The translations under genes were made by a program, and so were the position numbers. 64,000 bases of DNA from the NCBI GenBank assembly GCA_016699245.1, contig CP064968.1, positions 89,686 through 153,685 on the forward strand. The letters are read 5' to 3'. Each line of letters opens with the position of its first letter. The stretch's first letter is position 1. Of the stretch, positions 18,857 to 59,086 are shown piece after piece. The notes below the pieces were generated by a model. The model had not been told where the DNA came from. It did no database searches and worked only from the letters and a program-made list of their open reading frames with translations. Origin of the DNA: Candidatus Kaiserbacteria bacterium. GTDB taxonomy: Bacteria > Patescibacteriota > Minisyncoccia > Phycocordibacterales > UBA918.

Positions 18857-19331
18857 GAAAAGATACTTCGAGGGAACGTGGCGCGTCGCCCACAGGCGCG
18901 TGATGGGTGAAGGTTATGTTGTCTATAGTGACACGAGAAGCATTCAGTGGAAGAGGGTCCTTCCCATGGTCCATGAGCGTTACTTGACTACAAATGAGTG
19001 GTGGCGTACAGAAGGCATTTCCCGTATCGAGAGTGAATATGTACGCGACATGCCTGTCTTGCTCAAGTACAAGGGTGTCGCTTGTTTCTCCTTCGCCAGG
19101 CGTGGTGATGACACCCTGAGGGGTAGTGATGGTGTTGATCAGTGCATATCGGATTTTTGCAAGAATAAAGGAAGACTCATCTTCGTTTGTAATATTGCGG
19201 GAAAGCCGCTCGGCGCCGGTGAAGAATGGGTAAATACTGACGAAAATACCTGAGCATATAATTCCAAAAAGCCCCACATAGATTATGGTTTCAATGAGTG
19301 TGAAGCCGTTTTTATTATGGAGTACACACAT
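18807..19331 (-). CDS. minor pilin with prepilin N-terminal methylation motif
   Basis: NKNG|FTLIETIIYVGL motif; start chosen at the Met giving a 9-aa leader (ORF extends to 19412). Confidence 0.55.
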   Translation of the reverse strand: MCVLHNKNGFTLIETIIYVGLFGIICSGIFVSIYPFFTGAERLSRNITNEDESSFILAKIRYALINTITTPQGVITTPGEGETSDTLVLEQDRHVAYIFTLDTGNAFCTPPLICSQVTLMDHGKDPLPLNASRVTIDNITFTHHAPVGDAPRSLEVSFRVGDIPVGPIRYYLHF

Positions 19332-20913
19332 GTGGTTGGTCGCGTATAATGTCGAGCTTTGCATCTTTTTCATTTGCAACAAGAATATAACTTTGATAGT
19401 AGGCAAGCGCAACAGATTTTGAGTGACTCAAAGTATTGTCACAGGTGCTTATAGGGGAAATGATGGTGTCATTATCATTTTTTACATCCCATACATGAAA
19501 TGTTTGACTCGGGTCGGAGGTTATCAAAAACGCAACATCACTCTGCACGATAATATCAAGCACCTTAGTATTTGTTCCCAGACCAAGTTTTTTCCATTTT
19601 GTAGGTATGGGTATGTTTGAGTCACTGACATCAATTTTATATAAATCAGAATCACTGTTCGTGGTACGAGCACGCCCAAGATACACATATGAGCCAAGCG
19701 CATACACGCTTATACCATCAGCATTACCACTTGGATCGAATTTCATACCCGAGTCATCAGGAAGAACCATTGTCGCAGGTAAACGTATGTCAACTATCTG
19801 TAATTCTCCTGTGTTGTCTGAGGTGGCGAGATATGCGTGTGTCCCGCTCACCATAATATCGTTAATGTTGTGGTTGATGTTAAGGCTTTTAATATGTATA
19901 GGAGAAGTGCGAGCAGTTACGTCGTATACATGGAACTCATTATTCTGTGTCACAGCGCAACTTGAAGGACACGCAAGGTACTGCGTTCCCACATAGAGAC
20001 TATCGTCATAATAAAAAAGGCTTCGACCAACTGCAGTGTTTGTGTGGGGAATAGTGACGGCACCCACAAATGTTGGATATTCAGGATTTGATACATCGAG
20101 TATGTGAATCTGATTTGTTGTATCATTTTGAAGTGCATACGCCGTCTGATCAACCACAATAATTTTATTATACCCATATGGGGTAAAATCGACCTCAGCG
20201 ACAACTGTAGGATATTCTAAATTGGTGATGTCAATAACCATGAGGTCAGGCTCATTTGTGGTATCAGATTTCCCACTTATAAACACGTACGAAGTACCAT
20301 TAAGTATCGCAACATCCATATCGGTAGTGGTACCAGTAAAAGAACTTGGTGTAACGCTCCACCCAGTAACTTCTGGATTATCCCAATCGCCAGGAGGAAA
20401 TGGATCACAGGCGCCGCGGCCGTAGGACGCGGCAATATTGACATTACTGAGCGCAGTCCCGAATGAAATTTGGTGTTGACGCTCACGAAGTGACGTCCAG
20501 GTTGTTTTTCCCAGCACTTCCTTTACGCAGGGAGAAATATCGGTAACCTCGGGTGAAGCGTATGTGTAGATATCCACGGAGTCCGATGTATCAGTAGTGG
20601 GGATGAGTGCGCTCCAGTTTTCGGTGATGCTTCCCATGAGCGCGCCAAATTTATTGGAACTACTTGCAAGACCCTGACTGTCGAGGAGTGCATCAAGCGC
20701 TGCAGCTTGGCCACTTTCAAGTGATATTTGGCGGGCGAGTGTGGGGTCACTAAAGACAACCATTATTGCTGCAGAGAGAAAAATTATGCCGACACTAAAT
20801 GCAATAAGTATTTCGATAGTGGAAAATCCGGAAGTGAAGGTGTGTGGGGACGAGGTACGGCCTCGTCCCCACACACCTTTCTCAAATAACTTTGCGATGT
20901 GGAAAAATATCAT
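19315..20913 (-). CDS. large pilin-like protein: prepilin N-terminus fused to LVIVD-repeat beta-propeller
   Basis: N-terminal TSG|FSTIEILIAFSVGIIF, followed by repeated x-[LIV]-x-[IV]-x-D-[IV]-[ST]-N/D-P motifs (LMVIDITNLEYP, IHILDVSNPEYP, FHVYDVTARTSP, LQIVDIRLP, LYKIDVSDSNIP, FHVWDVKND) typical of LVIVD repeats. Confidence 0.6.
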   Translation of the reverse strand: MIFFHIAKLFEKGVWGRGRTSSPHTFTSGFSTIEILIAFSVGIIFLSAAIMVVFSDPTLARQISLESGQAAALDALLDSQGLASSSNKFGALMGSITENWSALIPTTDTSDSVDIYTYASPEVTDISPCVKEVLGKTTWTSLRERQHQISFGTALSNVNIAASYGRGACDPFPPGDWDNPEVTGWSVTPSSFTGTTTDMDVAILNGTSYVFISGKSDTTNEPDLMVIDITNLEYPTVVAEVDFTPYGYNKIIVVDQTAYALQNDTTNQIHILDVSNPEYPTFVGAVTIPHTNTAVGRSLFYYDDSLYVGTQYLACPSSCAVTQNNEFHVYDVTARTSPIHIKSLNINHNINDIMVSGTHAYLATSDNTGELQIVDIRLPATMVLPDDSGMKFDPSGNADGISVYALGSYVYLGRARTTNSDSDLYKIDVSDSNIPIPTKWKKLGLGTNTKVLDIIVQSDVAFLITSDPSQTFHVWDVKNDNDTIISPISTCDNTLSHSKSVALAYYQSYILVANEKDAKLDIIRDQPHVCTP

Positions 20914-20919
20914 AGTGTC

Positions 20920-21381
20920 TTACCAATCAATTTGACCCACATCGTTAATGGTGATTTGTTGCTCCTTACCATTGCCTGAAATGGTAAGTATTCCTGCGCC
21001 TTCAGATACACTTCCGGAAAGCCGTTCAAAGATAATATTTTCATGAGCAGCGCTGTGTGTGATGGTGATGTGTTCGCTCGTGAAAGGAGTAATACGATTA
21101 CTCGCTGTCCCTTCGATAAAGATCTCTCCTTCAAAAAGTACATACCGATGATTTGTGGTATCGACATGAACGCCGTAAGATACATTACCTGCATTTGCGA
21201 GAGCCTTCGCCCGCGCGCCAGAGAGAAGAAGAGATACAAAAAGATCGCGTTCCTGGAGAACACTCGCGCGTGCAATAGAGTCCATGTTCATGACTATGCC
21301 AAAGGAAAGGATGATACCGGTGAGCCCTACAACCATGAGGAGTTCGATGTATGTAAATCCTCTTTGCAGAATTTCTCTCAT
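20920..21381 (-). CDS. pseudopilin (GspH/FimT-like minor pilin)
   Basis: QRG|FTYIELLMVVGLTGIILSF prepilin motif; start at Met-23 of ORF 20920..21447. Confidence 0.6.
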   Translation of the reverse strand: MREILQRGFTYIELLMVVGLTGIILSFGIVMNMDSIARASVLQERDLFVSLLLSGARAKALANAGNVSYGVHVDTTNHRYVLFEGEIFIEGTASNRITPFTSEHITITHSAAHENIIFERLSGSVSEGAGILTISGNGKEQQITINDVGQIDW

Positions 21382-21391
21382 ACTATTCGTG

Positions 21392-22552
21392 TTAATTACT
21401 GAGGTGCTTTGTGACTTCGTAGATAGGAGTAATGACTGACACCGCAATGAGCCCTACCAAAATACCCATAGTCATAAGAAGTATAGGCTCAATTGAATTA
21501 GAAAGACTTTTTGTACTTTCATCTACTTCAGTCTCATAGAGACTCGACAGATAACTAAGCGTAACAGAAAGACTCCCTGTCGTTTCGCCAATAAGAAGCA
21601 TGTGGGGAAGCATATCAGGGAAGATGGAGAGATAGTGCATCATCCTGGTAGAAATTTTTTCACCTTTTTCAATATGCTCTGCAATATCGAGATATGCATT
21701 TTTGTATATGGTGTTTTTGGTAACACGGGCAGTGATGCGCATTGCTTCCACGACACCCACACCAGCAGAAATGTTGAGCCCTACTGTACGGCAGAAATTG
21801 GCGCAGTTGTACGCGCGAGCTATGTTGCCGATGATGGGAAGTCGTAAAAGAATCCAGTCAGAGATAGTGCGAAGCCGGGGGAACACGTTCCGTGAAATAA
21901 TGAAGACGAGTACGGCACCAATCAAGCCAAAAAAAGTTACTAGCCCCCATGTTTCTAGATATACGCTTATCGCAAGGAGGATACGTGTGGTAAGAGGGAG
22001 GGCGATATTGAGAGATATAAAGATAGGCATAATCTTCGGGAAAATGAACATCACCAACAGACTCGTTACGCCGAGTGTTGCAATGGTGATGAAAACTGGG
22101 TAAACGAGTGCGCTCTGCACCTTACGCTTTAATGCTTGTTTTTTAGCGAGTTCATCAGCGAGGTATATAAGGTTTTCTGAGAGAATGCCATTGTTTTCGC
22201 CAATGCGAATTATGTTAATGGTGAATTCACCAAATAGATGTTCATACCTTGCAAGACTTGTGGAAAGAAATTGTCCCGCAGAAACGTCCTGAATGATTGT
22301 ATAAAAAATAATTCGCTTTCGTTTTGATTTGGTTTGCGCATGAATCATGGTCATACTTTCGAGTATGGAGACACCTGCTTTCACCAAGAATGAAAGTCGC
22401 TTTGCAAAGAGGACTTGTTCTTGAATTGAAAAATGAAGAAAAAGAGTTGAAGCAGTAGGGAAGGAGGTTGTGTGTGAAGTGATTGTATTATTCACTTGGT
22501 CACGAGATGGTCCACGAAATCGTGCAACAAGATTTTGCAGTTTTGAGTGCAT
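21392..22552 (-). CDS. pilC: type IV pilus assembly platform protein PilC (GspF family)
   Basis: 386 aa with two GspF repeats and 3 TM segments. Confidence 0.8.
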   Translation of the reverse strand: MHSKLQNLVARFRGPSRDQVNNTITSHTTSFPTASTLFLHFSIQEQVLFAKRLSFLVKAGVSILESMTMIHAQTKSKRKRIIFYTIIQDVSAGQFLSTSLARYEHLFGEFTINIIRIGENNGILSENLIYLADELAKKQALKRKVQSALVYPVFITIATLGVTSLLVMFIFPKIMPIFISLNIALPLTTRILLAISVYLETWGLVTFFGLIGAVLVFIISRNVFPRLRTISDWILLRLPIIGNIARAYNCANFCRTVGLNISAGVGVVEAMRITARVTKNTIYKNAYLDIAEHIEKGEKISTRMMHYLSIFPDMLPHMLLIGETTGSLSVTLSYLSSLYETEVDESTKSLSNSIEPILLMTMGILVGLIAVSVITPIYEVTKHLSN

Positions 22553-29432: not shown

Positions 29433-30866
29433 ATGAGGGATATAAAATACAGAGATCACGCGGTTGCACCTATGTTATGGTCACGATACGCTACCTATTT
29501 TTTTGTGATGCTCGCTATTCTTCTTATCCCAGTCTTATTAGCATTCAAAGTAGAAGCAGACGTTGCTATTTTTCATTCAGACACGTATCTCGAGCAGGGC
29601 GTTGAGATGACGCATGAGTCAGGAACTGAAAAATATATACAGTATGAACACTTTTGGAGTGATTTTGAAGGAGTTGTTCCCGAAGATGCTCTTGTAAACA
29701 ATATTACACTCCATCTTACGTGGTCACCGGTGACGCGCGTGGTCTCTGATGGGGCAGTGGAAGATTCTCCAAAAGAGGTGACTCCAGAAAGTACTCATGA
29801 AGAGGTGATGAATGAACTACCTACGCCTGAAGAGCAATTAGGGGAATCATTGCATGAGGAACTCCCTGTAGAGCCAGACGTTGCTATTCCTGAAGAAACA
29901 GAACCTTCTTCAGAGGCGGTTATTCCTGTAGACAGTATTGATGAGCCTGAAGAAGTAATTATAGAAGAATCCACCTCTGATTCGCCTCCCGAAGCGAGTG
30001 ATAATTCATCGGAGACTGTGGGATTTGAGGAGGTTTCATGGAATCATTTGTATTCATTAGTTAATGCGCAGATTGAAGAGGAAGTTGCAACAAATACAAT
30101 AGTAATAACTGAAGGAAGTGAACCTGAAGTGATAATTACTGAGTCTATTTCGACCACTTCAGGATTTGTCTCGGAAGATATTTTGATTGAAAATCAGGCT
30201 GAGAAGTTCTTTGAAGTGCGGTATACGATTGATGGGGTGACATGGCAAGAGCTTGGGAATGTTGGATTTGATGATGCACAGGATACAGTATTTGATCTTT
30301 CACCTATAGGTATTGATGCAATACCAAACCTACGCGTTGCTATTCGATACACCGTTCGTGATGGAGAAACGACGAAGATTATTTTTGATTCAATGCGACT
30401 CGAAGTCGGATATGGAGCACCGGTCATAGAGGAAGTCGCTCCGCCCACCCTACAAAATGATAGCGAACCAAATTTTGACGTTGGTGCAATTAAGGCTGAT
30501 GTCCAATCGGAAAATATTCGAGCGGTTGTACTCGAAAGAGGAGGAGTCTTTGAGTTTTGGTACTCCGTCACTGACCCGCAATCAGGTGCAGTTTTTTGGA
30601 ATAAAATTCTTGGAGGAGGGGCTGTTGATGAGAATGCACCGATCGGTATTAAAAAACGGACGATATTTTGGCTTGATCGCAATCAACAAACACTCTTTGG
30701 GTTTGCTGTTGATGAAGAATCAATATTTGCAACTCCATTTCAAGATGACCAGGAAAGTAAAGTCTTTCTCCTTCCATTTACAGATGAAAATGGCAAGCCG
30801 TGGGAAGCACTATTTAATTCCTCAGAGAACGTACTTGAGTTCAGTAAAGTAAAAAGTGAATCATGA
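29433..30866 (+). CDS. membrane-anchored surface protein with E/P/S-rich acidic linker
   Basis: N-terminal TM (FFVMLAILLIPVLLAF), ~120-aa acidic low-complexity region, then a ~250-aa globular region; stop overlaps the start of the giant gene (ATGA). Confidence 0.5.
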   Translation: MRDIKYRDHAVAPMLWSRYATYFFVMLAILLIPVLLAFKVEADVAIFHSDTYLEQGVEMTHESGTEKYIQYEHFWSDFEGVVPEDALVNNITLHLTWSPVTRVVSDGAVEDSPKEVTPESTHEEVMNELPTPEEQLGESLHEELPVEPDVAIPEETEPSSEAVIPVDSIDEPEEVIIEESTSDSPPEASDNSSETVGFEEVSWNHLYSLVNAQIEEEVATNTIVITEGSEPEVIITESISTTSGFVSEDILIENQAEKFFEVRYTIDGVTWQELGNVGFDDAQDTVFDLSPIGIDAIPNLRVAIRYTVRDGETTKIIFDSMRLEVGYGAPVIEEVAPPTLQNDSEPNFDVGAIKADVQSENIRAVVLERGGVFEFWYSVTDPQSGAVFWNKILGGGAVDENAPIGIKKRTIFWLDRNQQTLFGFAVDEESIFATPFQDDQESKVFLLPFTDENGKPWEALFNSSENVLEFSKVKSES

Positions 30867-33800
30867 TGCGAGAGCGGCTCTTTCCATACATACGAGCGTT
30901 GTCGAAAAGACACATACTCATGGTGGGTGTTAGTTTTTTTATTATGGGCGTGTGTATTCTTGGCACACGACACCTTCTCGTTGGTGAAAAAGTTGGGCAG
31001 TTTATAAGGACGAATCGGGCGCTTGCACACTACCAATTCACCCCCACGCATGGCACCATCGTCACCGGCGCATCCACCACCATCACCTCAGCTACCGGAA
31101 ATACTACTGAAGGAGTCAATGTGGGTTCATGGAAGGGAACACTCTCCGACGATAACTATCACTGGGTCGTCGCTGGGGCAGGAGCAAGCGGACTTGATGT
31201 CAACCTCACCATGGGTGGGGTACAGTTAAACGGCGCCAACAAACTCATTGTCCAAACAGAATTTGACCTCGATGCGACCATTCTTGCAACTGAGGTACAG
31301 ATTTGTGACTGGACGTCATCAACTGATGTGGACGATGCCGCAGACAGTGAATGTACGGGTGGCGGGTGGCGTACCCTCAACACAAAAAATGAACTGCAAG
31401 GCCCGCAACGCCTCGTACACAGCACCGGTATCCCATTTCAGTGGCACCTTTATAACGGGTATTGGTCTACCGGCACGACCGGGGGAGCAGCGGTTGATAC
31501 GCCACTCACGAACTTCCTCAACGGTGCCGATCAGATGAAATTCCGATACTTCTCTGCCTCATCGAGCGTGTCCGAAATCGCCATTGACTACCTTCGTGTG
31601 TACGCGGTCGTCGACCCGGTCTATCACGCGGGAGGATTTGTACAGGAATCAGGCGGCACGCCGAGTGGCCACTATGGCAACACCTTTAGCGTCGGCCATT
31701 CCGTGACCGCACAATTCGCGGTGACTACCGGTGATAATATCTACCTCGGTGTCCCCGGTACGGTTGCGACTACATCAAACTTCTACCTCACCTTCAAGAA
31801 CGTGAAGACATACACCGGCATGAATACCATTCTCGTGAACGCCGAGACACTCTGTTCTCTCGCAACGGCTGGTCTCCAGTACCGATTCAAGATTCGCAAT
31901 TTTAATACCAGTATCTGGGAAGATATTTCACAACCACTCGACTGTTCTACCAACGGGTTTTTCAACAACTTTGCCTTAAACAACATCGTCATTGATGACT
32001 ACATCAATGCGTCAAACGAAATATGGGTGGGTGTCTCTGCGCTCTCAAACTCGACGACACAAATTCGCATCGACTCCATCTACCTCATGCTCGGCACTAC
32101 CAACACCGACACGAACAGTTGTGAAATATCATTTGGATCAAACACTGCAGGACGCATTGCCTCAAACCCCTCTGCGCCAGGAGCGGATCGTATCCAAGCA
32201 CTCACCTCAGATGGTACGTATATGTACGCTTCGGGATACGACAGTGCGGGAATCGATAATGAGTGGCGCATAGAGAAGCGCAATCTTTCCGACGGAGACC
32301 TCGTCTCGGCATTTGGTGTTGGTGGCGCAACCTCAACCGATCCCTCAGTTGGTGCCGACCAAATTTTCGCCATCGCCACAACCTCGGGTGCGATATTTGT
32401 TGCGGGGTATGACACAGCAGCGGGCACGGGGCAGTGGCGTATCGAGAAGCGCGATAGTACCGATGGTACGCTCGAAACCGCGTTTGATACGGATGGCATT
32501 ATCACCACAAATCCTTCAGCAAGCCTCGATCACATCAATGCGATTGCCACTGATGCGAGTTACCTCTACGTGGCAGGAGTTGAAAATACTACGAGTGGTA
32601 CGTGGCGCATTCATAAGTATGACATCACCACCGGTGCACTCGTTACCGCATTTGATGGAGATGGTATCGCGACGAGCACGCTTGCTGCCTCGGGCGACGA
32701 ACGACCGCAGGCGCTCAAGGTGGATGGCGACTATCTGTACATCGGGGGATACGACAACCTCTCCGGGAACATCGAGTGGCGTCTCGAGAAGCGCAACAAG
32801 ACCACCGGTGCACTTTGTGCGGGTGGAGGGGAGTGTGCCGCAGGTGCATTTGATACCGATGGTGTGGTGCAGACAAACCCCTCTTCGGGTATTGATGCAA
32901 TACGTGCACTCGCCATTACCGACGCACACGTGTTCCTTGCAGGATACGACTCATCAACCACAAACAACCAGTGGCGCATCGAAAAGCGCGATATCGCGAC
33001 CGGCGCACTCGATACTGCATTCGATACCGATGGTATTATGCAATATAACCCAAGTACCGGTGCTGACTGGATAACCGCACTCGCACTCGATGACACCACA
33101 CTCTACGCGATTGGAAATGTGAGCAACGGTGCGTGGCGTGTTGATGCTCGCGATATCACGACCGGTGCCTCGACGACGTTCTCCGGTAACGGTACGACAC
33201 TCTCTGAAGATGGTGGTGATGACCAGCCACTTGCCGTCGTACAGGAGGGTGGGTATCTCTATGTTGCAGGATACGGCACTGCTCCAGGAGACAACCAATG
33301 GCTCATCGAAAAACTTGCGACGAACACAGGGCTGCGGAGCACCGACAGCTTTGGTGCAAATGATTGCACCGGAACACGAAACATTGATATCACCGGCGGG
33401 AACAGAGATGCATGGACAATCCAGACACAAGATGAATCAACGAATCACAGTACTCCATACTATGCACTCGATACCGACGGTGATGCAGCAATTGAGGAAG
33501 CGGGATCAGCAACCATCGGGTTTTCGGTTGCGGTACCGGGAAACAGTGCTGTCACCGGTATCTACTGGGCAGGACGCGCAATGAACGGTGCAGGAGCGGG
33601 TACGGTGCGCCTTGCCGTGAAGGACTACTCAGGATTCACCGGCCTTACAGGAGGCAGAAGTCTCGTCGGTTCCTCACCAGGAATTGCTATGACATACACT
33701 GATCCCTTGATAGTTGGTGGTATTACCTCAGGAGGTATGGCAGGGTACCTCACAAACCCTGAGGATTATATTGATACCTTAAATAATGAGATGTCACTCA

Positions 33801-34270
33801 GTCTCGTGACCAACTCGGATGGTGCGAGTACCACGAATGCCGTGAACGTATGGGACTTTGCGATGGTGAGTTTTAGTTGGGTGGAGGATCCTGATCATGA
33901 AAGCGCCACGTATCAATTCACCCCCACGCATGGCACCATCGTCACCGGCGCATCCACCACCATCACCTCAGCTACCGGAAATACTACTGAAGGAGTCAAT
34001 GTGGGTTCATGGAAGGGAACACTCTCCGACGATAACTATCACTGGGTCGTCGCTGGGGCAGGAGCAAGCGGACTTGATGTCAACCTCACCATGGGTGGGG
34101 TACAGTTAAACGGCGCCAACAAACTCATTGTCCAAACAGAATTTGACCTCGATGCGACCATTCTTGCAACTGAGGTACAGATTTGTGACTGGACGTCATC
34201 AACTGATGTGGACGATGCCGCAGACAGTGAATGTACGGGTGGCGGGTGGCGTACCCTCAACACAAAATGA
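30863..34270 (+). CDS. giant surface beta-propeller protein, part 1 (N-terminal TM + repeat unit 1 + start of unit 2; truncated by TGA created by an A4 tract)
   Basis: N-terminal TM; ~60-aa repeats of form AGYD...WRIEKRDxxDGTLxTAFDTDGI resembling delta-60-type beta-propeller repeats; terminates at 34268 where copy 2 has A4 instead of A6. Confidence 0.6.
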   Translation: MMRERLFPYIRALSKRHILMVGVSFFIMGVCILGTRHLLVGEKVGQFIRTNRALAHYQFTPTHGTIVTGASTTITSATGNTTEGVNVGSWKGTLSDDNYHWVVAGAGASGLDVNLTMGGVQLNGANKLIVQTEFDLDATILATEVQICDWTSSTDVDDAADSECTGGGWRTLNTKNELQGPQRLVHSTGIPFQWHLYNGYWSTGTTGGAAVDTPLTNFLNGADQMKFRYFSASSSVSEIAIDYLRVYAVVDPVYHAGGFVQESGGTPSGHYGNTFSVGHSVTAQFAVTTGDNIYLGVPGTVATTSNFYLTFKNVKTYTGMNTILVNAETLCSLATAGLQYRFKIRNFNTSIWEDISQPLDCSTNGFFNNFALNNIVIDDYINASNEIWVGVSALSNSTTQIRIDSIYLMLGTTNTDTNSCEISFGSNTAGRIASNPSAPGADRIQALTSDGTYMYASGYDSAGIDNEWRIEKRNLSDGDLVSAFGVGGATSTDPSVGADQIFAIATTSGAIFVAGYDTAAGTGQWRIEKRDSTDGTLETAFDTDGIITTNPSASLDHINAIATDASYLYVAGVENTTSGTWRIHKYDITTGALVTAFDGDGIATSTLAASGDERPQALKVDGDYLYIGGYDNLSGNIEWRLEKRNKTTGALCAGGGECAAGAFDTDGVVQTNPSSGIDAIRALAITDAHVFLAGYDSSTTNNQWRIEKRDIATGALDTAFDTDGIMQYNPSTGADWITALALDDTTLYAIGNVSNGAWRVDARDITTGASTTFSGNGTTLSEDGGDDQPLAVVQEGGYLYVAGYGTAPGDNQWLIEKLATNTGLRSTDSFGANDCTGTRNIDITGGNRDAWTIQTQDESTNHSTPYYALDTDGDAAIEEAGSATIGFSVAVPGNSAVTGIYWAGRAMNGAGAGTVRLAVKDYSGFTGLTGGRSLVGSSPGIAMTYTDPLIVGGITSGGMAGYLTNPEDYIDTLNNEMSLSLVTNSDGASTTNAVNVWDFAMVSFSWVEDPDHESATYQFTPTHGTIVTGASTTITSATGNTTEGVNVGSWKGTLSDDNYHWVVAGAGASGLDVNLTMGGVQLNGANKLIVQTEFDLDATILATEVQICDWTSSTDVDDAADSECTGGGWRTLNTK

Positions 34271-36770
34271 ACTGCAAGGCCCGCAACGCCTCGTACACAG
34301 CACCGGTATCCCATTTCAGTGGCACCTTTATAACGGGTATTGGTCTACCGGCACGACCGGGGGAGCAGCGGTTGATACGCCACTCACGAACTTCCTCAAC
34401 GGTGCCGATCAGATGAAATTCCGATACTTCTCTGCCTCATCGAGCGTGTCCGAAATCGCCATTGACTACCTTCGTGTGTACGCGGTCGTCGACCCGGTCT
34501 ATCACGCGGGAGGATTTGTACAGGAATCAGGCGGCACGCCGAGTGGCCACTATGGCAACACCTTTAGCGTCGGCCATTCCGTGACCGCACAATTCGCGGT
34601 GACTACCGGTGATAATATCTACCTCGGTGTCCCCGGTACGGTTGCGACTACATCAAACTTCTACCTCACCTTCAAGAACGTGAAGACATACACCGGCATG
34701 AATACCATTCTCGTGAACGCCGAGACACTCTGTTCTCTCGCAACGGCTGGTCTCCAGTACCGATTCAAGATTCGCAATTTTAATACCAGTATCTGGGAAG
34801 ATATTTCACAACCACTCGACTGTTCTACCAACGGGTTTTTCAACAACTTTGCCTTAAACAACATCGTCATTGATGACTACATCAATGCGTCAAACGAAAT
34901 ATGGGTGGGTGTCTCTGCGCTCTCAAACTCGACGACACAAATTCGCATCGACTCCATCTACCTCATGCTCGGCACTACCAACACCGACACGAACAGTTGT
35001 GAAATATCATTTGGATCAAACACTGCAGGACGCATTGCCTCAAACCCCTCTGCGCCAGGAGCGGATCGTATCCAAGCACTCACCTCAGATGGTACGTATA
35101 TGTACGCTTCGGGATACGACAGTGCGGGAATCGATAATGAGTGGCGCATAGAGAAGCGCAATCTTTCCGACGGAGACCTCGTCTCGGCATTTGGTGTTGG
35201 TGGCGCAACCTCAACCGATCCCTCAGTTGGTGCCGACCAAATTTTCGCCATCGCCACAACCTCGGGTGCGATATTTGTTGCGGGGTATGACACAGCAGCG
35301 GGCACGGGGCAGTGGCGTATCGAGAAGCGCGATAGTACCGATGGTACGCTCGAAACCGCGTTTGATACGGATGGCATTATCACCACAAATCCTTCAGCAA
35401 GCCTCGATCACATCAATGCGATTGCCACTGATGCGAGTTACCTCTACGTGGCAGGAGTTGAAAATACTACGAGTGGTACGTGGCGCATTCATAAGTATGA
35501 CATCACCACCGGTGCACTCGTTACCGCATTTGATGGAGATGGTATCGCGACGAGCACGCTTGCTGCCTCGGGCGACGAACGACCGCAGGCGCTCAAGGTG
35601 GATGGCGACTATCTGTACATCGGGGGATACGACAACCTCTCCGGGAACATCGAGTGGCGTCTCGAGAAGCGCAACAAGACCACCGGTGCACTTTGTGCGG
35701 GTGGAGGGGAGTGTGCCGCAGGTGCATTTGATACCGATGGAGTGGTGCAGACAAACCCCTCTGCTGGTGTCGATACAATACGCGCACTCGCCATTACCGA
35801 CACACATGTTTTCGTTGCAGGATACGACTCCTCAACCACGAACAACCAGTGGCGCATCGAAAAGCGCGATATCGCGACCGGCGCACTTGAAACTGCATTC
35901 GATACCGATGGTATTATGCAATATAACCCAAGTACCGGTGCTGACTGGATAACCGCACTCGCACTCGATGACACCACACTCTACGCGATTGGAAATGTGA
36001 GCAACGGTGCGTGGCGTGTTGATGCCCGTGACATAACAACAGGTGCCTCGACGACGTTCTCCGGTAACGGTACGACACTCTCTGAAGATGGTGGTGATGA
36101 CCAGCCACTTGCCGTCGTACAGGAGGGTGGGTATCTCTATGTTGCAGGATACGGCACTGCTCCAGGAGACAACCAATGGCTCATCGAAAAACTTGCGACG
36201 AACACAGGGCTGCGGAGCACCGACAGCTTTGGTGCAAATGATTGCACCGGAACACGAAACATTGATATCACCGGCGGGAACAGAGATGCATGGACAATCC
36301 AGACACAAGATGAATCAACGAATCACAGTACTCCATACTATGCACTCGATACCGACGGTGATGCAGCAATTGAGGAAGCGGGATCAGCAACCATCGGGTT
36401 TTCGGTTGCGGTACCGGGAAACAGTGCTGTCACCGGTATCTACTGGGCAGGACGCGCAATGAACGGTGCAGGAGCGGGTACGGTGCGCCTTGCCGTGAAG
36501 GACTACTCAGGATTCACCGGCCTTACAGGAGGCAGAAGTCTCGTCGGTTCCTCACCAGGAATTGCTATGACATACACTGATCCCTTGATAGTTGGTGGTA
36601 TTACCTCAGGAGGTATGGCAGGGTACCTCACAAACCCTGAGGATTATATTGATACCTTAAATAATGAGATGTCACTCAGTCTCGTAACGAACTCGGATGG
36701 TGCAAGTACCACGAATGCCGTGAACGTATGGGACTTTGCGATGGTGAGTTTTAGTTGGGTGGAGCCGGAA
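31023..36770 (+). repeat. 2 x 2,874-bp near-identical tandem duplication inside the giant surface gene
   Basis: Copy 1 31023-33896 and copy 2 33897-36770; the 5' ~1.85 kb is identical apart from the A-tract, with clustered substitutions in the 3' third. Confidence 0.9.
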
Positions 36771-37172
36771 CCCGTGCCAGTCTATTCGATATCAATTACC
36801 AGTGATGGAACAATACAGTATGGGTTTGTAGACCTGAGTGTAGCGAGTTCGACCGTTGGTGGGGATACACAGGCAGCAGAAAATACGGGAAGCCTTAATG
36901 AAAAAATAAATATTCGTTCAAGTAACGCTCTTGGCGGGACGAGCTGGCTTCTTGCATCAGTAATTGGAAGTAATCAGTATACTCATGAATTTTCGACAAC
37001 GACGGGAGTAACGTGGAAAACAATGCCCGATAGCAGTACATACGTGGTTGCAGATCCGTCTGTGACACCAAGTGGTACGGTAGATTTTGATTTTAGACTC
37101 ACGATGCCAAGCGGCACCACTGATTTTGTTGAAAAATCAATTACTATTACAGTCCAGGCCGTCGCCCCATAG
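34266..37172 (+). CDS. giant surface beta-propeller protein, part 2 (remainder of repeat unit 2 + unique C-terminal ~130-aa domain)
   Basis: Frame continuing copy 2 after the A-tract shift (ORF-track 34128..37172; the first ~45 residues of that ORF are out-of-frame read-through). Confidence 0.6.
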   Translation, partial: NELQGPQRLVHSTGIPFQWHLYNGYWSTGTTGGAAVDTPLTNFLNGADQMKFRYFSASSSVSEIAIDYLRVYAVVDPVYHAGGFVQESGGTPSGHYGNTFSVGHSVTAQFAVTTGDNIYLGVPGTVATTSNFYLTFKNVKTYTGMNTILVNAETLCSLATAGLQYRFKIRNFNTSIWEDISQPLDCSTNGFFNNFALNNIVIDDYINASNEIWVGVSALSNSTTQIRIDSIYLMLGTTNTDTNSCEISFGSNTAGRIASNPSAPGADRIQALTSDGTYMYASGYDSAGIDNEWRIEKRNLSDGDLVSAFGVGGATSTDPSVGADQIFAIATTSGAIFVAGYDTAAGTGQWRIEKRDSTDGTLETAFDTDGIITTNPSASLDHINAIATDASYLYVAGVENTTSGTWRIHKYDITTGALVTAFDGDGIATSTLAASGDERPQALKVDGDYLYIGGYDNLSGNIEWRLEKRNKTTGALCAGGGECAAGAFDTDGVVQTNPSAGVDTIRALAITDTHVFVAGYDSSTTNNQWRIEKRDIATGALETAFDTDGIMQYNPSTGADWITALALDDTTLYAIGNVSNGAWRVDARDITTGASTTFSGNGTTLSEDGGDDQPLAVVQEGGYLYVAGYGTAPGDNQWLIEKLATNTGLRSTDSFGANDCTGTRNIDITGGNRDAWTIQTQDESTNHSTPYYALDTDGDAAIEEAGSATIGFSVAVPGNSAVTGIYWAGRAMNGAGAGTVRLAVKDYSGFTGLTGGRSLVGSSPGIAMTYTDPLIVGGITSGGMAGYLTNPEDYIDTLNNEMSLSLVTNSDGASTTNAVNVWDFAMVSFSWVEPEPVPVYSISITSDGTIQYGFVDLSVASSTVGGDTQAAENTGSLNEKINIRSSNALGGTSWLLASVIGSNQYTHEFSTTTGVTWKTMPDSSTYVVADPSVTPSGTVDFDFRLTMPSGTTDFVEKSITITVQAVAP

Positions 37173-37255
37173 TTTTAGAAAGTATAAAAAATGTTGATAA
37201 GCGTGAAGTAATCATGATGTTACTTGATACAATATAATAGAATTAATTAAATACT

Positions 37256-37807
37256 ATGTACCATCTTAATCACCACCAACTTTTTGGAGTAATAGAAAAA
37301 GCACGACACCAACTTTTTTTCATTGTAGTAAGTATGCTTTCGATCGCGATTGTTTTTGGTGGTATGAATGCTTTTGCACAGAGTACTGATACGGTGACTG
37401 CTACCGTGACCGCAACGAATCTTGCAGTCTCTGTTTCTGATGGTACTATCGCCTTTGGCTCAGTGGCGCTCAATACCGCAACAACGACCGTTGGCACCGC
37501 GCAAACACAAACCGTTTCTAATGATGGTTCGGCTGCAGTGCTTAATGTTAAATCGAGCAATGCAACAAATGGTACATTGTGGACTCTCGGCACAAGTCCT
37601 GGTTCGGATATTTTTAAACTCGAAGTATCAACAACGACGGGATCAACATACGGGACGCTTCAGGCTACTGACGTATATCTCACCGCATCATCAACGTTTG
37701 CCTCACTCACAAATCAAAACGTTGATTTCCGCTTCACGACACCAACTGTCTCCACAGACTTCGTCCAAAAGTCACTCACTATTACCGTGCAGGTGACGAC
37801 ACCATAA
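37256..37807 (+). CDS. small secreted protein paralogous to the C-terminal domain of the giant protein
   Basis: TM/signal, then a domain aligning with 36771..37172 (LWTLGTS vs SWLLASV; EVSTTTGSTYG vs EFSTTTGVTWK; DFRFTTP vs DFDFRLTMP; KSLTITVQV vs KSITITVQA). Confidence 0.5.
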   Translation: MYHLNHHQLFGVIEKARHQLFFIVVSMLSIAIVFGGMNAFAQSTDTVTATVTATNLAVSVSDGTIAFGSVALNTATTTVGTAQTQTVSNDGSAAVLNVKSSNATNGTLWTLGTSPGSDIFKLEVSTTTGSTYGTLQATDVYLTASSTFASLTNQNVDFRFTTPTVSTDFVQKSLTITVQVTTP

Positions 37808-37819
37808 TTACCTATTTAG

Positions 37820-38479
37820 ATGAAATATGGTATACCTATCTACATGCGATTAGCCACATACTCAGTTTTAGTAAAAATTCTGTTTGTCTTTGGGATTGTT
37901 TCTGTACTATTTTTACTCTCCTCAGAGGAGATGTTTGCGAAAGTTGGTGTGGGGATGGGTGCAGGTGAGATTCGAGTAACAGAATCCATAAAGCCAGGGG
38001 GGATTTACTCACTTCCCAGCCTTCGTGTGTTTAATACCGGAGATGAAACGACTACGTATGGAATGAATATTGCGTATCATCAGGACAATCCACAACTACG
38101 ACCAGGAAAATCATGGTTTTCTTTTACTCCTGCAACGTTCACGATAGAACCAGGTGAAAGTCAGGAAGTTCAGATATCGATGTCAGTCCCGGTGAAAACT
38201 GATCCGGGAGAATATTTTGCTTTTCTCGAAAGCGGACCAGTTGCGGAGGGTGGCCCAGGAACATCGGTAGGTGTTGCTGTTGCTACAAAACTCTATTTTG
38301 ATGTTGTACATGCAAATCTTTGGAGCGCACTGACGTACAGAGTTTCTACATTTCTCACGATATATGCACCGTGGTCATGGATTGGCTTAGGGCTTCTCGT
38401 GTGTGGTGCCGTTGCTTTTATCTTTGCGCGATTCTTTTCCCTGGACGTTTCCTTACGAAAAAAGAAAACACAAGAGTAA
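37820..38479 (+). CDS. membrane-anchored beta-sandwich surface protein (DUF916/DUF3324-like architecture)
   Basis: N-terminal signal/TM, Ig-like segment (FTIEPGESQEVQISMSVPVKTDPGEYFAFLE), C-terminal TM + basic tail RKKKTQE. Confidence 0.4.
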   Translation: MKYGIPIYMRLATYSVLVKILFVFGIVSVLFLLSSEEMFAKVGVGMGAGEIRVTESIKPGGIYSLPSLRVFNTGDETTTYGMNIAYHQDNPQLRPGKSWFSFTPATFTIEPGESQEVQISMSVPVKTDPGEYFAFLESGPVAEGGPGTSVGVAVATKLYFDVVHANLWSALTYRVSTFLTIYAPWSWIGLGLLVCGAVAFIFARFFSLDVSLRKKKTQE

Positions 38480-38484
38480 TTTTA

Positions 38485-39462
38485 ATGGTCTCAAAATCTT
38501 ACGTTTTTGTTTTTTCTATACTCATCCTGTGCGCTACTGCTTTTCTCAGTTATTTTGTGGTGAGTTATGCAGCAGATATTAATGCAACCATAACAACGGG
38601 CTTATTTACTCCACTCAGCCCTCTCAATCTCGCAGTCTCTATTTCTGACAGAAGTGTCGATCTTTCATGGTCGCCACCAGCATCGAATGGGGGATCGGTA
38701 CTTATTGATTATGTGATTGAATATAAGCTCACAACTGGGGGCGTTTGGGCTGTTTTTGTTGACTCCGTTTCAACAAGTACATCAGTAACAGTAACGGGTC
38801 TTACCAATGATACCTCCTATGATTTTAGGGTTTCTGGAGTGAATGCGATTGGTCAAGGCCCCGCTTCTACACCGGTGAGCGCAACACCGGGTGCTCCCGC
38901 TCAGGTACTCGTCACTGGTATGAGCGATGTAACCATTCCAACTATCAGTACATCGGTGAGAATTACCAACGAAGGTGCGGTTGCATACGAGTACCAGTAC
39001 ACGTGGTGTGTGACGAATTCTGACGTTAATCTGTGTGGAGGAGGGGATGATATTTTTAATTCCACCGCAGCAAAACTTATTCTTCCGGGAGAGAGTTGGG
39101 ATACGAGCCTTAGTTCTACGGTACCAATAATCGGCAACTACTGGTTTCATGTGCAAGTCCTGTTTGGCTCTGATTCTTCGTATGCAAGCCAATCATTTAC
39201 GACACTGAGTGAACCCAGTGGTGGTGGGGGAGGAGGGGGAAGCAGTGGGTCAAAAAGTAAGTCTCGGTCTTGCTCGGGCGGTGACTTTAACCGAGATAAG
39301 ATTGTGAACTTGGTCGACTTTTCAATTTTCCTCATGTCGTATAACAAACCTGCACCATTCCCCAATCCTTGTGTGGATATCAATAGTGACACAAAAGTAA
39401 ACGTGGTTGATTTTTCTATTCTTCTGACACAATGGGGTAAAAAGCCGATTCTCTATAAATAA
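38485..39462 (+). CDS. secreted FN3-domain protein with Gly-rich linker and C-terminal type-I dockerin
   Basis: Signal peptide; FN3 (LSWSPPASNGGSVLIDYVIEY...TSYDFRVSGVNAIG); GGGGGGSSGS linker; two Ca-binding dockerin loops exactly matching D1-x-N3-x-D5-x-x-V8-N9-x-x-D12 (DFNRDKIVNLVD, DINSDTKVNVVD) each followed by FSI(F/L)L helix. Confidence 0.65.
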   Translation: MVSKSYVFVFSILILCATAFLSYFVVSYAADINATITTGLFTPLSPLNLAVSISDRSVDLSWSPPASNGGSVLIDYVIEYKLTTGGVWAVFVDSVSTSTSVTVTGLTNDTSYDFRVSGVNAIGQGPASTPVSATPGAPAQVLVTGMSDVTIPTISTSVRITNEGAVAYEYQYTWCVTNSDVNLCGGGDDIFNSTAAKLILPGESWDTSLSSTVPIIGNYWFHVQVLFGSDSSYASQSFTTLSEPSGGGGGGGSSGSKSKSRSCSGGDFNRDKIVNLVDFSIFLMSYNKPAPFPNPCVDINSDTKVNVVDFSILLTQWGKKPILYK

Positions 39463-39467
39463 ATTGT

Positions 39468-40340
39468 ATGACACTCACGCATCTTTCTCATTTTTATAAA
39501 ATCAGTGTGGTTATCATATTGTTTTTTTGTGCGCAAATCACCTTTGCAGCGCACGTGACATTTGAAGTGGTTCCGGCACTTGTGCCCGATGATACGGCAA
39601 CAATTATTGAAGTGCGGATGAATCCGGATGGGGTACCCATTAATGCGGTTGAGGGTACGATAGGGCTCTTTGGTGCAGGACTATCAGCCGTCTCCTCAAT
39701 TATTGTTGAAACCGGTGGTTCCGCACTGACACTCTGGCCAAGTATCCCTGAGTACTCACCTTTAGAAAAGGTGATTCGATTCACCGGCGGCACTCCCGAA
39801 ACATTTTCCGGAGACGTATTACTATTTCGCATGAGAATCTTTTCAAAAAAACCAGGAGAAATTACCACGTCGTGGCTCGGAGGCTCAGCATATCAGAGTG
39901 ATGGAATCGGTACTAAAGAAGGTGTTTCCTCACGTTCACTCACCGTATCACTTGCTCAGAATGAACCAAATCAAATAAACGCAGCATCGATCGATTCAAC
40001 ACCGCCTCGCTTTGAAGATATTCTAATCTCACAAGATATAGATGCGTATGATGGAAAGCATTTTTTGAGTTGGAATGCAATTGATGATATCTCTGGAATC
40101 GCGAGGTATGAAGTTGTGGAAGGCACCACGACCACAGAAGTGAATAATGGTGTGTATGTATTACATGATCAAGAACGAAAGACGAAGATAATTGTTATTG
40201 CATATGACCATGCAGGAAATAGTACGTCAATCAAAGTTTCGACACGATACAATACACTCGGTATCATCGTCGTCGGTGTCGTAATTGCGCTCACGCTCCT
40301 TGGGGTTTTCATTGTTCGAAGAAGATACCTCAAGCAATAA
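39468..40340 (+). CDS. membrane-anchored cohesin-like domain protein (putative dockerin receptor)
   Basis: Signal peptide; ~140-aa N-terminal beta-sandwich with cohesin-like segments (VTFEVVPALVPDDTATIIEVRMNPDGVPINAVEGTIGL...LEKVIRFTGG); C-terminal TM LGIIVVGVVIALTLLGVFIV + RRRYLKQ. Confidence 0.4.
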   Translation: MTLTHLSHFYKISVVIILFFCAQITFAAHVTFEVVPALVPDDTATIIEVRMNPDGVPINAVEGTIGLFGAGLSAVSSIIVETGGSALTLWPSIPEYSPLEKVIRFTGGTPETFSGDVLLFRMRIFSKKPGEITTSWLGGSAYQSDGIGTKEGVSSRSLTVSLAQNEPNQINAASIDSTPPRFEDILISQDIDAYDGKHFLSWNAIDDISGIARYEVVEGTTTTEVNNGVYVLHDQERKTKIIVIAYDHAGNSTSIKVSTRYNTLGIIVVGVVIALTLLGVFIVRRRYLKQ

Positions 40341-57567: not shown

Positions 57568-59086
57568 TTATGGGTGTACGAGGCATCTGCCGGTCATTAC
57601 TGCCGGCTGTGGAAGATTCATTAAGTGAAGGATAGTGGGCGCCACATCAGCGAGTGTCCCGTTTTCAATTTTTTCTTCATGGGAGGTCACAATAACGGGG
57701 ACGTGGTTGGTGGTGTGTGCGGTATGCATTTCACCCGTCTCATGGTTGATATTTTCTTCTGCATTGCCATGATCTGCGGTAATGAGCACAACCCCATCGT
57801 GTGAAAGTGCCGCCTCCACCACACGCTTCAATTGCGTATCCACTTCTGTAAGTGCAATGTGGAGCGCTTCTGTATTGCCGGTGTGTCCCACCATGTCGGC
57901 ATTAGCGAAATTGATAAAAATGAAGTCAGTTCCTTTCTCTATGGATTCGAGCGCCTTATCAGCAATTTCTTTTGCACGCATTTTTGGCGCGAGGTCATGC
58001 GTGAGTACGTCTTTGCGACTCGGTACGAGAATGTGCTCCTCACCAGGGTAGGGAAGTTCATGGCAGCAATTGAGAAAGAATGTTGCATGCGCATACTTTT
58101 CTGTTTCGGCAATGTGTGCCTGTGAAAGTCCGGCATCAGAAACTTCTTTTGCGAGCGTTGTCGTAATTTCTATTGGAGGGAATGCAACATGCGCAGGAAT
58201 TCCTTTCTCGTACTCGGTAAGTGTCACAAAACACAAATCCTTCTTCTCTGCATGCGTCACAATTTTACTCGAGAGCATGCGCGCTCGATCAGAGCGGAAA
58301 TTAAAAAAAGAAAATTCCATCATGATCCATCACCGTGTACTGGTGCCCCTCTTCATCAAGGAAAACGGTGGGTTTCACATGCTCATCAAAGACACCCTCT
58401 GCATACAACTTCTCCATTATCTCAGATGGTCTGCATGTATGCTCAGTGTTATCACATCGTCCATGGAAAATTGCATCCTCAACACGCTCGAGCCTGTCCC
58501 AGTTGTTGTCTCTATCCATTGCATAGAAACGTCCGGCGGTGGTGGCAATAAATCCGATGCCTAAATCATCGATGACGTCCTCAAGTTCCTTGAGATACTG
58601 TGCTGCACTTCGTGGCCCTGTGTCGCGTCCGTCGGTAAATGCGTGAATGGCTATTTTTGTTACACCCGCCTCTTTTGCCGCCTTCATAAAAGCGTACAGA
58701 TGGCTACTGTGACTATGGATTCCTCCCGGGGAGAGGAGCCCTTTGATATGCAACACCGAATCGTGCTTTTTTACATGGTCAAATAGTTTTATAAAAGCAG
58801 GATTCGTCGCAAACTCATTATTTTTTACCGCCTTTGATATGCGGAGTAAGTCGGTATCAATAATTTTACCTGCACCGATGGTCATGTGTCCCACTTCACT
58901 ATTTCCCATCTGGCCAGAGGGAAGACCGACACTCTCCGAACTTGCTTCAAGAAGCGCATGAGGATAGGTATTCCACAAGGAATCAAAAAATGGTGTCGGC
59001 GCTTCTGCTATGGCATTATCGCGCGTCTCTTCGCGATGCCCCCATCCATCGAGAACAATGAGAACCGTTGGTTTTTTATCGTGCAT
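57568..59086 (-). CDS. gpmI: 2,3-bisphosphoglycerate-independent phosphoglycerate mutase, split by a -1/+1 frameshift at a T7/A7 tract near 58294-58325
   Basis: N-terminal half (58301..59086: VLDGWGH, catalytic Ser region) and C-terminal half (57568..58323: FNFRSDRAR...DHGN) together equal a full ~510-aa iPGM; junction ...IFF|FNFR falls in a homopolymer run. Confidence 0.8.

What the first reader, a model, noticed from the sequence alone, without database searches (positions are those of the whole stretch)
36771..38479. Shared ~130-aa C-terminal domain (giant protein and small paralog) followed by a DUF916-like doubly anchored protein
The unique tail of the giant protein (...SWLLASVIGSNQYTHEFSTTTGVTWK...DFDFRLTMPSGTTDFVEKSITITVQAVAP) is paralogous to most of the 183-aa product of 37256..37807 (...LWTLGTSPGSDIFKLEVSTTTGSTYG...DFRFTTPTVSTDFVQKSLTITVQVTTP). 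Each carries a single W-x-L motif. The next gene encodes a protein with an N-terminal signal, an Ig-like beta-sandwich and a C-terminal TM. A large WxL-type protein, a small WxL-type protein and a DUF916/DUF3324 protein form the hallmark trio of Gram-positive WxL surface loci. Here the trio appears in a diverged form and fused to a beta-propeller.
Basis: inference. Interest (0 to 1): 0.65.

Follow-up and report, generated by a model that had tools for sequence, protein, structure and literature searches.

The report
WxL-like surface-display gene trio in Patescibacteria
A giant surface protein, a small secreted protein that shares its roughly 135-residue tail domain, and a membrane-tethered Ig-like protein form an almost invariant gene trio in ultra-small Patescibacteria; it is built like the WxL/WxLIP surface system of lactic acid bacteria but is not a recognisable member of those families.

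Summary
The giant protein's unique tail and the 183-aa product are paralogous (44% identity over 124 aa, E 9e-23). The next gene encodes a signal peptide, one Ig-like sandwich and a C-terminal TM helix.

The window comes from a Candidatus Kaiserbacteria genome. The shared domain defines a large unannotated family of 927 representative clusters. It ends within 3 residues of the C-terminus in 281 of 281 proteins. It occurs either alone in proteins of about 170 aa or behind varied passenger domains.

The trio is syntenic. In 46 of 47 metagenome loci a domain gene lies directly upstream of the Ig/TM gene, and 36 of 37 have two.

No Pfam WxL, DUF916 or DUF3324 match exists. The DUF3324 domain and the second WxL motif are missing. 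Profile comparison of the tail domain with WxL is only marginal, though consistent in register. The small-protein structure prediction failed, so its fold is untested.

Verdict: a WxL-like non-covalent surface-display system, a new variant of a known kind.

The parts
29433..30866 (+). Upstream 477-aa protein with an N-terminal TM segment and an acidic low-complexity region. It is the first gene of the conserved cassette. Its stop overlaps the start of the giant gene.
   Evidence: ORF. A syntenic 468-aa orthologue in L071 is 32.5% identical. No Pfam family.
30863..37172 (+). Giant surface protein gene of about 2100 aa. In this assembly it reads as two ORFs (30863-34270 and 34128-37172) because of a 2-nt difference in an A-run.
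   Evidence: ORFs. Intact 2104-aa and 2122-aa orthologues exist, 65% identical. Seven WRIEKR repeats per module. Sub-threshold delta-60 repeat hit.
31028..33886 (+). First copy of the internal tandem duplication (2.86 kb).
   Evidence: blastn shows 99.0% identity over 2860 nt to 33907-36764.
33907..36764 (+). Second copy of the tandem duplication. The frameshifting A4 run is at 34260-34263.
   Evidence: The same duplication is seen in the intact L071 orthologue as paired hits 965 aa apart.
36765..37169 (+). C-terminal anchor-type domain of the giant protein (about 135 aa) with the invariant Trp (SWLL).
   Evidence: BLASTP E 9e-23 to the small paralogue. Family HMM positions 9-140 match residues 890-1020 of the ORF.
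37256..37807 (+). Small paralogue (183 aa): a signal peptide with likely cleavage A39-F40-A41|Q42, a short Thr/Val-rich N-terminal segment, and the same domain (about nt 37397-37804).
   Evidence: P0001 is 100% identical (Candidatus Kaiserbacteria, IPH92_00515). The mature part is 67-87% identical in many Patescibacteria.
37844..38479 (+). Type-I membrane protein (211 aa from the homologue-supported start; an alternative ATG lies at 37820). It has a signal peptide, an invariant GVGMGAGE motif, one PapD-like/WxLIP-PGBD-like Ig domain (nt 37955-38305), an amphipathic helix, a TM helix (nt 38375-38473) and a basic tail.
38485..39462 (+). Secreted FN3 + dockerin protein in the same operon, 5-nt gap.
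   Evidence: Pfam fn3 3.7e-16 and Dockerin_1 0.0019. Syntenic in L071/L072 with a full Dockerin_1 hit.
39468..40340 (+). Cohesin-like protein with a C-terminal TM helix. It is the presumed membrane receptor for the dockerin protein.
   Evidence: BLASTP E 1e-7 to the cohesin region (Pfam PF00963, 5.5e-8) of the L073 567-aa protein. Syntenic.

Best explanation
The region encodes the core trio of a conserved Patescibacteria surface-protein cassette. Part one is a large, variable 'passenger' protein. Here it is a protein of about 2100 aa with two propeller-containing modules, and it ends in a C-terminal domain of about 135 aa. Part two is a small secreted protein that consists of that domain alone. 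Part three is a type-I membrane protein with a single Ig domain of the PapD-like/WxLIP-PGBD kind.

Proposed mechanism (inferred): after Sec export, the membrane-tethered Ig protein captures the C-terminal domain of both the large and the small protein. Capture probably works by beta-strand augmentation, as predicted for WxLIP-WxL and as seen in PapD-like chaperones. The variable passenger domains are thereby held non-covalently on the cell surface, and the small protein acts as the partner or platform subunit. The neighbouring dockerin protein and cohesin/TM protein form a second, independent pair of the same logic, a secreted ligand and a membrane receptor.

The system works like the WxL/WxLIP clusters of Bacilli and may be a very distant relative of them.

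Shown: the paralogy, the family-wide C-terminal placement, the synteny, and the Ig fold with WxLIP as the closest solved structure. Inferred: binding between the parts, the strand-donation mode, surface display, and homology to WxL.
For: Paralogy: E 9e-23.

Family: 927 representative clusters. The domain ends within 0-3 aa of the C-terminus in 281 of 281 proteins. It occurs alone in proteins of about 170 aa or behind varied passengers: YjiK/SdiA-regulated propeller + DUF2341, BNR, Gly_rich_2 + Big_7, PhoD-like.

Synteny: 46 of 47 metagenome loci have a domain gene ending within 200 nt upstream of the Ig/TM gene. 36 of 37 have at least 2 domain-bearing ORFs upstream. The same order is found in Kaiserbacteria, Nealsonbacteria and other Patescibacteria contigs.

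Tail domain: a WxL HMM hits family members P0270 and P0265 at 17.1 and 16.2 bits (E 2.5e-5 among 145 sequences). The family's invariant Trp falls on the first-WxL-motif Trp in 45 of 146 members, against 1 (reversed) and 3 (shuffled) of 146. The best reciprocal hit among 531 Bacilli ORFs is a true PF13731 protein.

Against: No Pfam or NCBIfam WxL, DUF916 or DUF3324 hit.

hhalign of the whole tail-domain family against small or large WxL is not significant (P 0.17 and 0.058). A 19-member subfamily reaches P 0.015 and A2 reaches P 0.019. The window's own two copies score only 2.3 and -0.4 bits against the WxL HMM.

The second WxL motif is replaced by (I/V)TVTVQAxxP, and the DUF3324 domain is missing.

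The fold of the tail domain is unknown (AF2 pLDDT 50.6). No interaction was computed or measured.
Confidence: 0.55

Rival explanations
1. Donor-strand fibre (chaperone-usher-like logic in a monoderm). The highly conserved small protein is the major subunit of a polymeric fibre or sheath. The large proteins with the same C-terminal domain are tip or minor adhesin subunits, as in FimH-type two-domain adhesins. The PapD-like membrane protein is the assembly chaperone or the base anchor.
Confidence: 0.2
2. An independent C-terminal wall-binding or sorting domain. The domain of about 135 aa binds peptidoglycan or another envelope polymer, or acts as an export or sorting signal, on its own. The Ig/TM protein is just another surface protein that is co-transcribed with it.
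For: The strict C-terminal position (281 of 281) is typical of anchoring and sorting domains in general. No interaction has been shown. The operon contains other surface proteins (FN3-dockerin, cohesin-like).
Against: The near-invariant adjacency and order of the domain genes and the Ig/TM gene (46/47 and 36/37) holds across lineages in which the passenger domains are swapped. This is hard to explain without functional coupling. L074 doubles both the large genes and the Ig/TM genes.
Confidence: 0.17
3. A bona fide, merely diverged member of the WxL (PF13731) and WxLIP (PF06030/PF11797) families.
Against: Defining features were tested and not met. There are no family HMM hits. There is one WxL motif instead of two. 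There is no DUF3324 domain and no NQIDKxxxYFDLK motif. The domain is about 135 aa instead of 160-190 aa. hhalign is non-significant, while true small and large WxL match each other at P 4e-20.
Confidence: 0.08

Closest known systems
WxL / WxLIP (Csc) cell-surface clusters of Lactobacillales and Bacillales: Pfam PF13731 WxL, PF06030 WxLIP_PGBD (DUF916), PF11797 WxLIP_HBD (DUF3324)
   Different: There is no detectable family-level sequence membership. The tail domain is shorter (about 135 aa) and has a single W-x-L; the C-terminal TWxLxDxP motif is replaced by TVTVQAxxP. The Ig protein has only the DUF916-like domain, with no DUF3324 domain and no NQIDK...YFDLK motif. No LPxTG partner was seen. 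The host is Patescibacteria, whereas more than 91% of known WxL sequences are in Firmicutes. Here the trio is coupled to a cohesin-dockerin pair.
PapD-like periplasmic chaperones of chaperone-usher pili (FaeE, Caf1M, FimC, PapD) and the wider PapD-like/ASH/MSP Ig superfamily
   Different: There is a single Ig domain instead of two. The protein is membrane-anchored by a C-terminal TM helix. There is no usher. The organism is presumed to have no outer membrane.
Cohesin-dockerin surface anchoring
   Same: The logic is the same, a secreted protein held by a membrane- or wall-anchored receptor domain, and it is encoded immediately downstream in the same operon.
   Different: The folds and families are different. 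It is a neighbour of the trio, not part of the finding itself.

Membership tests
WxL domain (PF13731) | Match to the family HMM | tested here: not met
   No PF13731 hit at E<=1 for either window copy. PF13731 is not among the 25 most-matched of the 28 and 44 families hit at E<=10 by the 55 and 65 family members. Positive controls from Bacilli score 1e-57 to 4e-70.
WxL domain (PF13731) | Two conserved Trp-x-Leu motifs on adjacent strands | tested here: not met
   Only one W-x-L is present; the Trp is invariant. It aligns to the first WxL motif in 45 of 146 members, against 1-3 of 146 in controls. The position of the second motif is occupied by (I/V)TVTVQAxxP.
WxL domain (PF13731) | Domain always at the C-terminal end; the small form is signal peptide + domain only; the large form has N-terminal passenger domains | tested here: met
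   The domain ends within 0-3 aa of the C-terminus in 281 of 281 proteins. Small forms of about 170 aa and large forms of 300-2100 aa both occur. Passengers vary.
WxL domain (PF13731) | Profile-profile similarity to real WxL alignments | tested here: inconclusive
   hhalign P 0.17 (family against small WxL), 0.058 (against large WxL) and 0.015 (subfamily). HMMER: WxL HMM against P0270 gives 17.1 bits, E 2.5e-5; the best reversed control gives 9.9 bits.
WxL domain (PF13731) | WxL-type beta-sandwich fold | not testable with these tools
   The AF2 model of the small protein has pLDDT 50.6. Foldseek on it found nothing below E 1.
WxL domain (PF13731) | Non-covalent peptidoglycan binding | not testable with these tools
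   This needs a binding assay.
WxLIP (PF06030 DUF916/PGBD + PF11797 DUF3324/HBD + TM) | Match to the PF06030 and PF11797 HMMs | tested here: not met
   There is no hit at E<=1 for the window protein. Neither family is among the 25 most-matched of 34 families for 40 members at E<=10. The control WxLIP scores 3e-40 and 5e-45.
WxLIP (PF06030 DUF916/PGBD + PF11797 DUF3324/HBD + TM) | Two tandem Ig-like domains (PGBD then HBD) | tested here: not met
   The model shows one sandwich (residues 38-154) followed directly by helices. hhalign matches the DUF916 half (P about 1e-3) but not the DUF3324 half (P 0.2).
WxLIP (PF06030 DUF916/PGBD + PF11797 DUF3324/HBD + TM) | N-terminal signal peptide and C-terminal transmembrane helix | tested here: met
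   AF2 predicts helices at 2-30 and 178-210. A basic tail (RKKKTQE) follows the second one.
WxLIP (PF06030 DUF916/PGBD + PF11797 DUF3324/HBD + TM) | Conserved NQIDKxxxYFDLK motif near the N-terminus | tested here: not met
   The motif is absent from alignment A3, which instead has an invariant GVGMGAGE.
WxLIP (PF06030 DUF916/PGBD + PF11797 DUF3324/HBD + TM) | Structural similarity to solved WxLIP | tested here: met
WxL gene cluster (Hassan & Williamson definition: at least 1 WxLIP and at least 2 WxL genes within four genes) | Clustered trio | tested here: met
   The analogous trio is adjacent in the window and in 36 of 37 metagenome loci with enough upstream sequence. It is met only in the analogous sense, because the component families are not the Pfam ones.
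Chaperone-usher pilus system | Outer-membrane usher and soluble two-domain PapD-like chaperone | tested here: not met
   No usher-like gene is present in the cassette or its syntenic copies. The PapD-like protein has one domain and a TM anchor.

The most novel reading that the evidence does not exclude
Patescibacteria (CPR) possess a phylum-wide, previously undescribed non-covalent surface-display system. A modular C-terminal domain of about 135 aa is captured by a membrane-tethered, single-domain PapD-like/WxLIP-like receptor. The system is an ancient sister of the WxL/WxLIP system, which is thought to be nearly confined to Bacilli. It is the means by which these episymbionts mount their giant, rapidly swapped adhesin-like proteins.
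Probability: 0.4. Interest if true: 0.75.

Novelty: new variant of a known kind. Interest (0 to 1): 0.6.

Why it matters
Patescibacteria live attached to, or dependent on, other microbes. How their large surface proteins are held on the cell is largely unknown.

This finding offers a concrete and testable anchoring module. It consists of a modular C-terminal domain with 927 representative clusters and many different passengers, an abundant small paralogue, and a dedicated membrane receptor.

The finding would also extend the WxL/WxLIP logic well beyond Bacilli. It links that logic structurally to the PapD-like strand-donating Ig proteins, which bears on the origin of both systems.

In practice, the domain is a handle for finding the surface-exposed adhesin repertoire in CPR genomes, where all of these proteins are currently annotated as hypothetical.

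Tried and rejected
1. Structure of the small protein. AF2 with 55 sequences gave pLDDT 50.6. Foldseek on that model found nothing below E 1.6.

2. The afdb50 fold library was unavailable.

3. PDB sequence and profile searches with the small protein, A2 and A4 found nothing significant. The best hits were ThreeFoil at E 0.4, Nup210 at 0.9 and an SCPU pilin at 2. The SCPU, DUF1120 and DUF4402 hints are noise level and I treat them as a lead only.

4. TasA/camelysin (Peptidase_M73). E 0.42 and 0.041 in 2 of 55 members, and confined to the signal-peptide region. Rejected.

5. hhalign of the tail domain against WxLIP, and against the Ig/TM family: P 0.03-0.3. There is no evidence that the tail domain is itself a DUF916-type Ig domain.

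6. Concerted evolution of the small and large copies within a locus. Only L073 shows it (69% against about 40%). The other loci do not. I do not use it as evidence of co-binding.

7. The sigma-70 promoter and terminator scan of the operon found fewer sites than in shuffled sequence. It is uninformative. A lone perfect TATAAT lies 17 nt upstream of the small gene's ATG.

8. The tandem duplication as an assembly artefact. Rejected, because an intact 2122-aa orthologue from another metagenome has the same internal duplication. The frameshift itself is probably a homopolymer error, since the iPGM gene in the window is also split at a T7 run.

9. Literature. No paper in the searchable library combines 'WxL domain' with Patescibacteria, or cohesin and dockerin with Parcubacteria.
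Full report
**Source and observation.** The window comes from a Candidatus Kaiserbacteria (Patescibacteria/CPR) genome. The 183-aa and 211-aa products are 100% identical to NCBI proteins IPH92_00515 and IPH92_00520, which lie on a 1.05-Mb contig.

The last 150 aa of the giant protein and the 183-aa product align at 44% identity over 124 aa, E 9e-23. Each carries one W-x-L tripeptide, and its Trp is invariant across the family.

The third gene encodes an N-terminal hydrophobic helix, one beta-sandwich and a C-terminal TM helix. This comes from an AlphaFold2 model with mean pLDDT 82.5 and strands between residues 38 and 154.

**The giant gene.** It contains a 2.86-kb tandem duplication, 31028-33886 and 33907-36764, at 99% identity. 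The 'unique tail' starts exactly at the end of the second copy.

In this assembly the gene is split into two ORFs. The cause is an A6 run in copy one against an A4 run in copy two. Intact orthologues of 2104 and 2122 aa exist, and the 2122-aa one has the same internal duplication. Single-module versions of 1140 aa sit in the same 90% identity cluster. The duplication is therefore real.

The frameshift is probably a homopolymer error. Another gene in the window, iPGM, is also split next to a T7 run.

Each module has seven 'WRIEKR' repeats about 57 aa apart and a sub-threshold delta-60 repeat hit. Both fit a propeller.

**The tail domain is a large, unannotated, strictly C-terminal family.** An exhaustive profile search found 927 representative clusters at E<=1e-3, of which 520 are at E<=1e-10.

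- Members are of two kinds. Some are proteins of about 170 aa made of a signal peptide plus the domain. The others are proteins of 300-2100 aa.
- The N-terminal parts of the large members differ: YjiK/SdiA-regulated propeller + DUF2341, BNR repeats, Gly_rich_2 + Big_7, and PhoD-like.
- Wherever a source names the organism, it is a Patescibacteria lineage, and every product is called 'hypothetical'.
- No Pfam, NCBIfam or PDB sequence match is significant.

**The trio is syntenic.** In the window the genes are packed on one strand from 29433 to 40340. The order is: 477-aa protein, giant, small, Ig/TM, FN3-dockerin, cohesin-like/TM.

The order large, small, Ig/TM recurs in contigs assigned to other Patescibacteria, including a complete Nealsonbacteria genome. 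It holds even where the passenger part of the large protein is entirely different. One locus has two large genes and two Ig/TM genes.

I fetched 61 metagenome loci using the Ig/TM protein as the query:

- 46 of the 47 loci with more than 600 nt of upstream sequence have a domain-bearing gene ending within 200 nt of the Ig/TM gene.
- 36 of the 37 loci with more than 1.5 kb upstream have at least two domain-bearing ORFs on the same strand.

Some of these loci are near-duplicates from sister samples, so the counts overstate independence. The pattern is nevertheless essentially invariant.

**What the Ig/TM protein is.**

- Foldseek against the PDB puts it in the PapD-like/ASH/MSP superfamily. The HYDIN PapD-like domain scores 3.9e-6 and the FaeE chaperone 5e-6, followed by Caf1M, CupB2, DraB and FimC. 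'WxLIP from E. faecium' (9i1y) scores 1.6e-4.
- To test family membership directly, I fetched 68 genuine WxL loci from Bacilli through the DUF916 motif NQIDKxxxYFDLK. Controls confirmed that they are PF13731, PF06030 and PF11797 proteins and that they match 9i1y.
- hhalign of the Ig/TM family against 57 WxLIP proteins gives P 6.5e-4, against about 0.05 for reversed controls. The match falls on the DUF916 (PGBD) half at P about 1e-3. The DUF3324 half gives P 0.2.
- No member hits the Pfam DUF916 or DUF3324 models. Members hit fn3_5 (40 of 40) and PapD_N (25 of 40, best 2.2e-5) instead.
- The protein has one Ig domain, not two. It lacks the NQIDK motif and has its own invariant GVGMGAGE segment.

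It is therefore a single-domain, TM-anchored relative of the PapD-like/WxLIP-PGBD kind. It is not a member of the WxLIP families.

**Whether the tail domain is a WxL domain.** This could not be settled.

- *Structure.* The AF2 model failed (pLDDT 50.6), and a fold search on it returned only noise.
- *Profile-profile comparison.* Results were non-significant to marginal: P 0.17 against small WxL, 0.058 against large WxL, 0.015 for a 19-sequence subfamily and 0.019 for A2. True small and large WxL match each other at P 4e-20.
- *A weak signal that is consistent in register.* A WxL HMM scores family members P0270, P0265 and P0267 at 17.1, 16.2 and 11.3 bits (E 2.5e-5 to 1.4e-3 among 145 sequences). 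It aligns 'sidyvss.ldFG' with 'SITITSDGIIEYG', and 'VtDnrGtnaGWtL..qF' with 'VKSSDASG-GTGWTL..QF'. The best reversed control scores 9.9 bits and the next 3.4.
- *Position of the Trp.* The family's invariant Trp lands on the first-motif Trp in 45 of 146 members. In reversed and shuffled controls it does so in 1 and 3 of 146.
- *Reciprocal search.* The best reciprocal hit among 531 Bacilli ORFs (E 0.0027) is a true WxL protein.
- *The window's own copies.* They score only 2.3 and -0.4 bits, so the link is transitive.
- *What is missing.* The second WxL motif (TWxLxDxP) is absent. The corresponding last strand reads (I/V)TVTVQAxxP.

**Mechanism (inferred).** The evidence is: a domain that must be C-terminal, a stand-alone paralogue, and an always-adjacent membrane-tethered Ig protein of a strand-donating superfamily whose closest solved structure is WxLIP.

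The best-supported model is non-covalent surface display. The Ig/TM protein captures the tail domain of the large and small proteins, probably by beta-strand augmentation. This mode is predicted for WxLIP-WxL (PMC10599100) and is established for PapD-like chaperones (general knowledge).

The downstream dockerin protein and the cohesin-like/TM protein repeat the same logic with different folds.

The main rival is a donor-strand fibre, with the very conserved small protein as the major subunit. Its mature part is 81% identical between the window and L071, against 63% for Ig/TM and 44-48% for the dockerin and cohesin genes. Small proteins also carry an extra Thr/Val-alternating N-terminal segment. 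No usher-like gene is present.

A third possibility is that the domain anchors or sorts independently of the Ig/TM protein. The near-perfect synteny argues against this.

[quoted passage not shown] The Kaiserbacteria trio reproduces that architecture and the WxLIP-like fold. It fails the sequence-family tests, lacks DUF3324 and lacks the second WxL motif. I found no paper that links WxL to Patescibacteria.

I therefore file it as a new variant of a known kind: it works like a WxL cluster, and membership is not established.

Noticed in passing
window 31028-33886 and 33907-36764; 34260-34263: There is a 2.86-kb in-frame tandem duplication inside the giant gene (99% identity). A 2-nt shorter A-run in the second copy splits the gene into two ORFs. 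Intact 2104-aa and 2122-aa versions and single-module 1140-aa versions exist elsewhere, so module number varies between close relatives.
   Followed up: yes
window 38485-39462 and 39468-40340: An FN3 + dockerin secreted protein is followed by a cohesin-like protein with a C-terminal TM helix. Both are in the same operon and are syntenic in other Patescibacteria. This looks like a second pair of secreted ligand and membrane receptor next to the trio.
   Followed up: partly
window 29433-30866: A 477-aa protein with an N-terminal TM segment and a long acidic low-complexity stretch overlaps the giant gene's start. It is conserved in synteny (32% identity in L071) and has no family assignment.
   Followed up: partly
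window 57568-59086 (- strand): The cofactor-independent phosphoglycerate mutase gene appears split into two overlapping ORFs next to a T7 run. This suggests the assembly carries homopolymer indel errors. The gene was identified by eye from the translation.
   Followed up: partly
window 19315-22552 (- strand): Two or three ORFs have type IV pilin-like N-termini (for example ...GFTYIELLMVVGL... and ...GFSTIEILIAF...). They were seen only in the ORF translations and were not analysed.
   Followed up: no
L074 1099-12334; L075 11954-12913: Two variants of the cassette were seen. L074 has two large proteins and two Ig/TM genes flanking one small gene. In L075 the Ig/TM protein carries a cytoplasmic extension of about 100 aa after the TM helix.
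   Followed up: partly
L073 6511-8513: In the Nealsonbacteria locus the small and large copies of the domain are 69% identical to each other but only about 40% identical to copies in other loci. This suggests a recent duplication or gene conversion. Other loci do not show this.
   Followed up: partly
window 37233-37238: A perfect TATAAT hexamer lies 17 nt upstream of the small gene's ATG, in the 83-nt gap after the giant gene. There is no good -35 element and no obvious Shine-Dalgarno sequence. It may be an internal promoter for the small gene.
   Followed up: no
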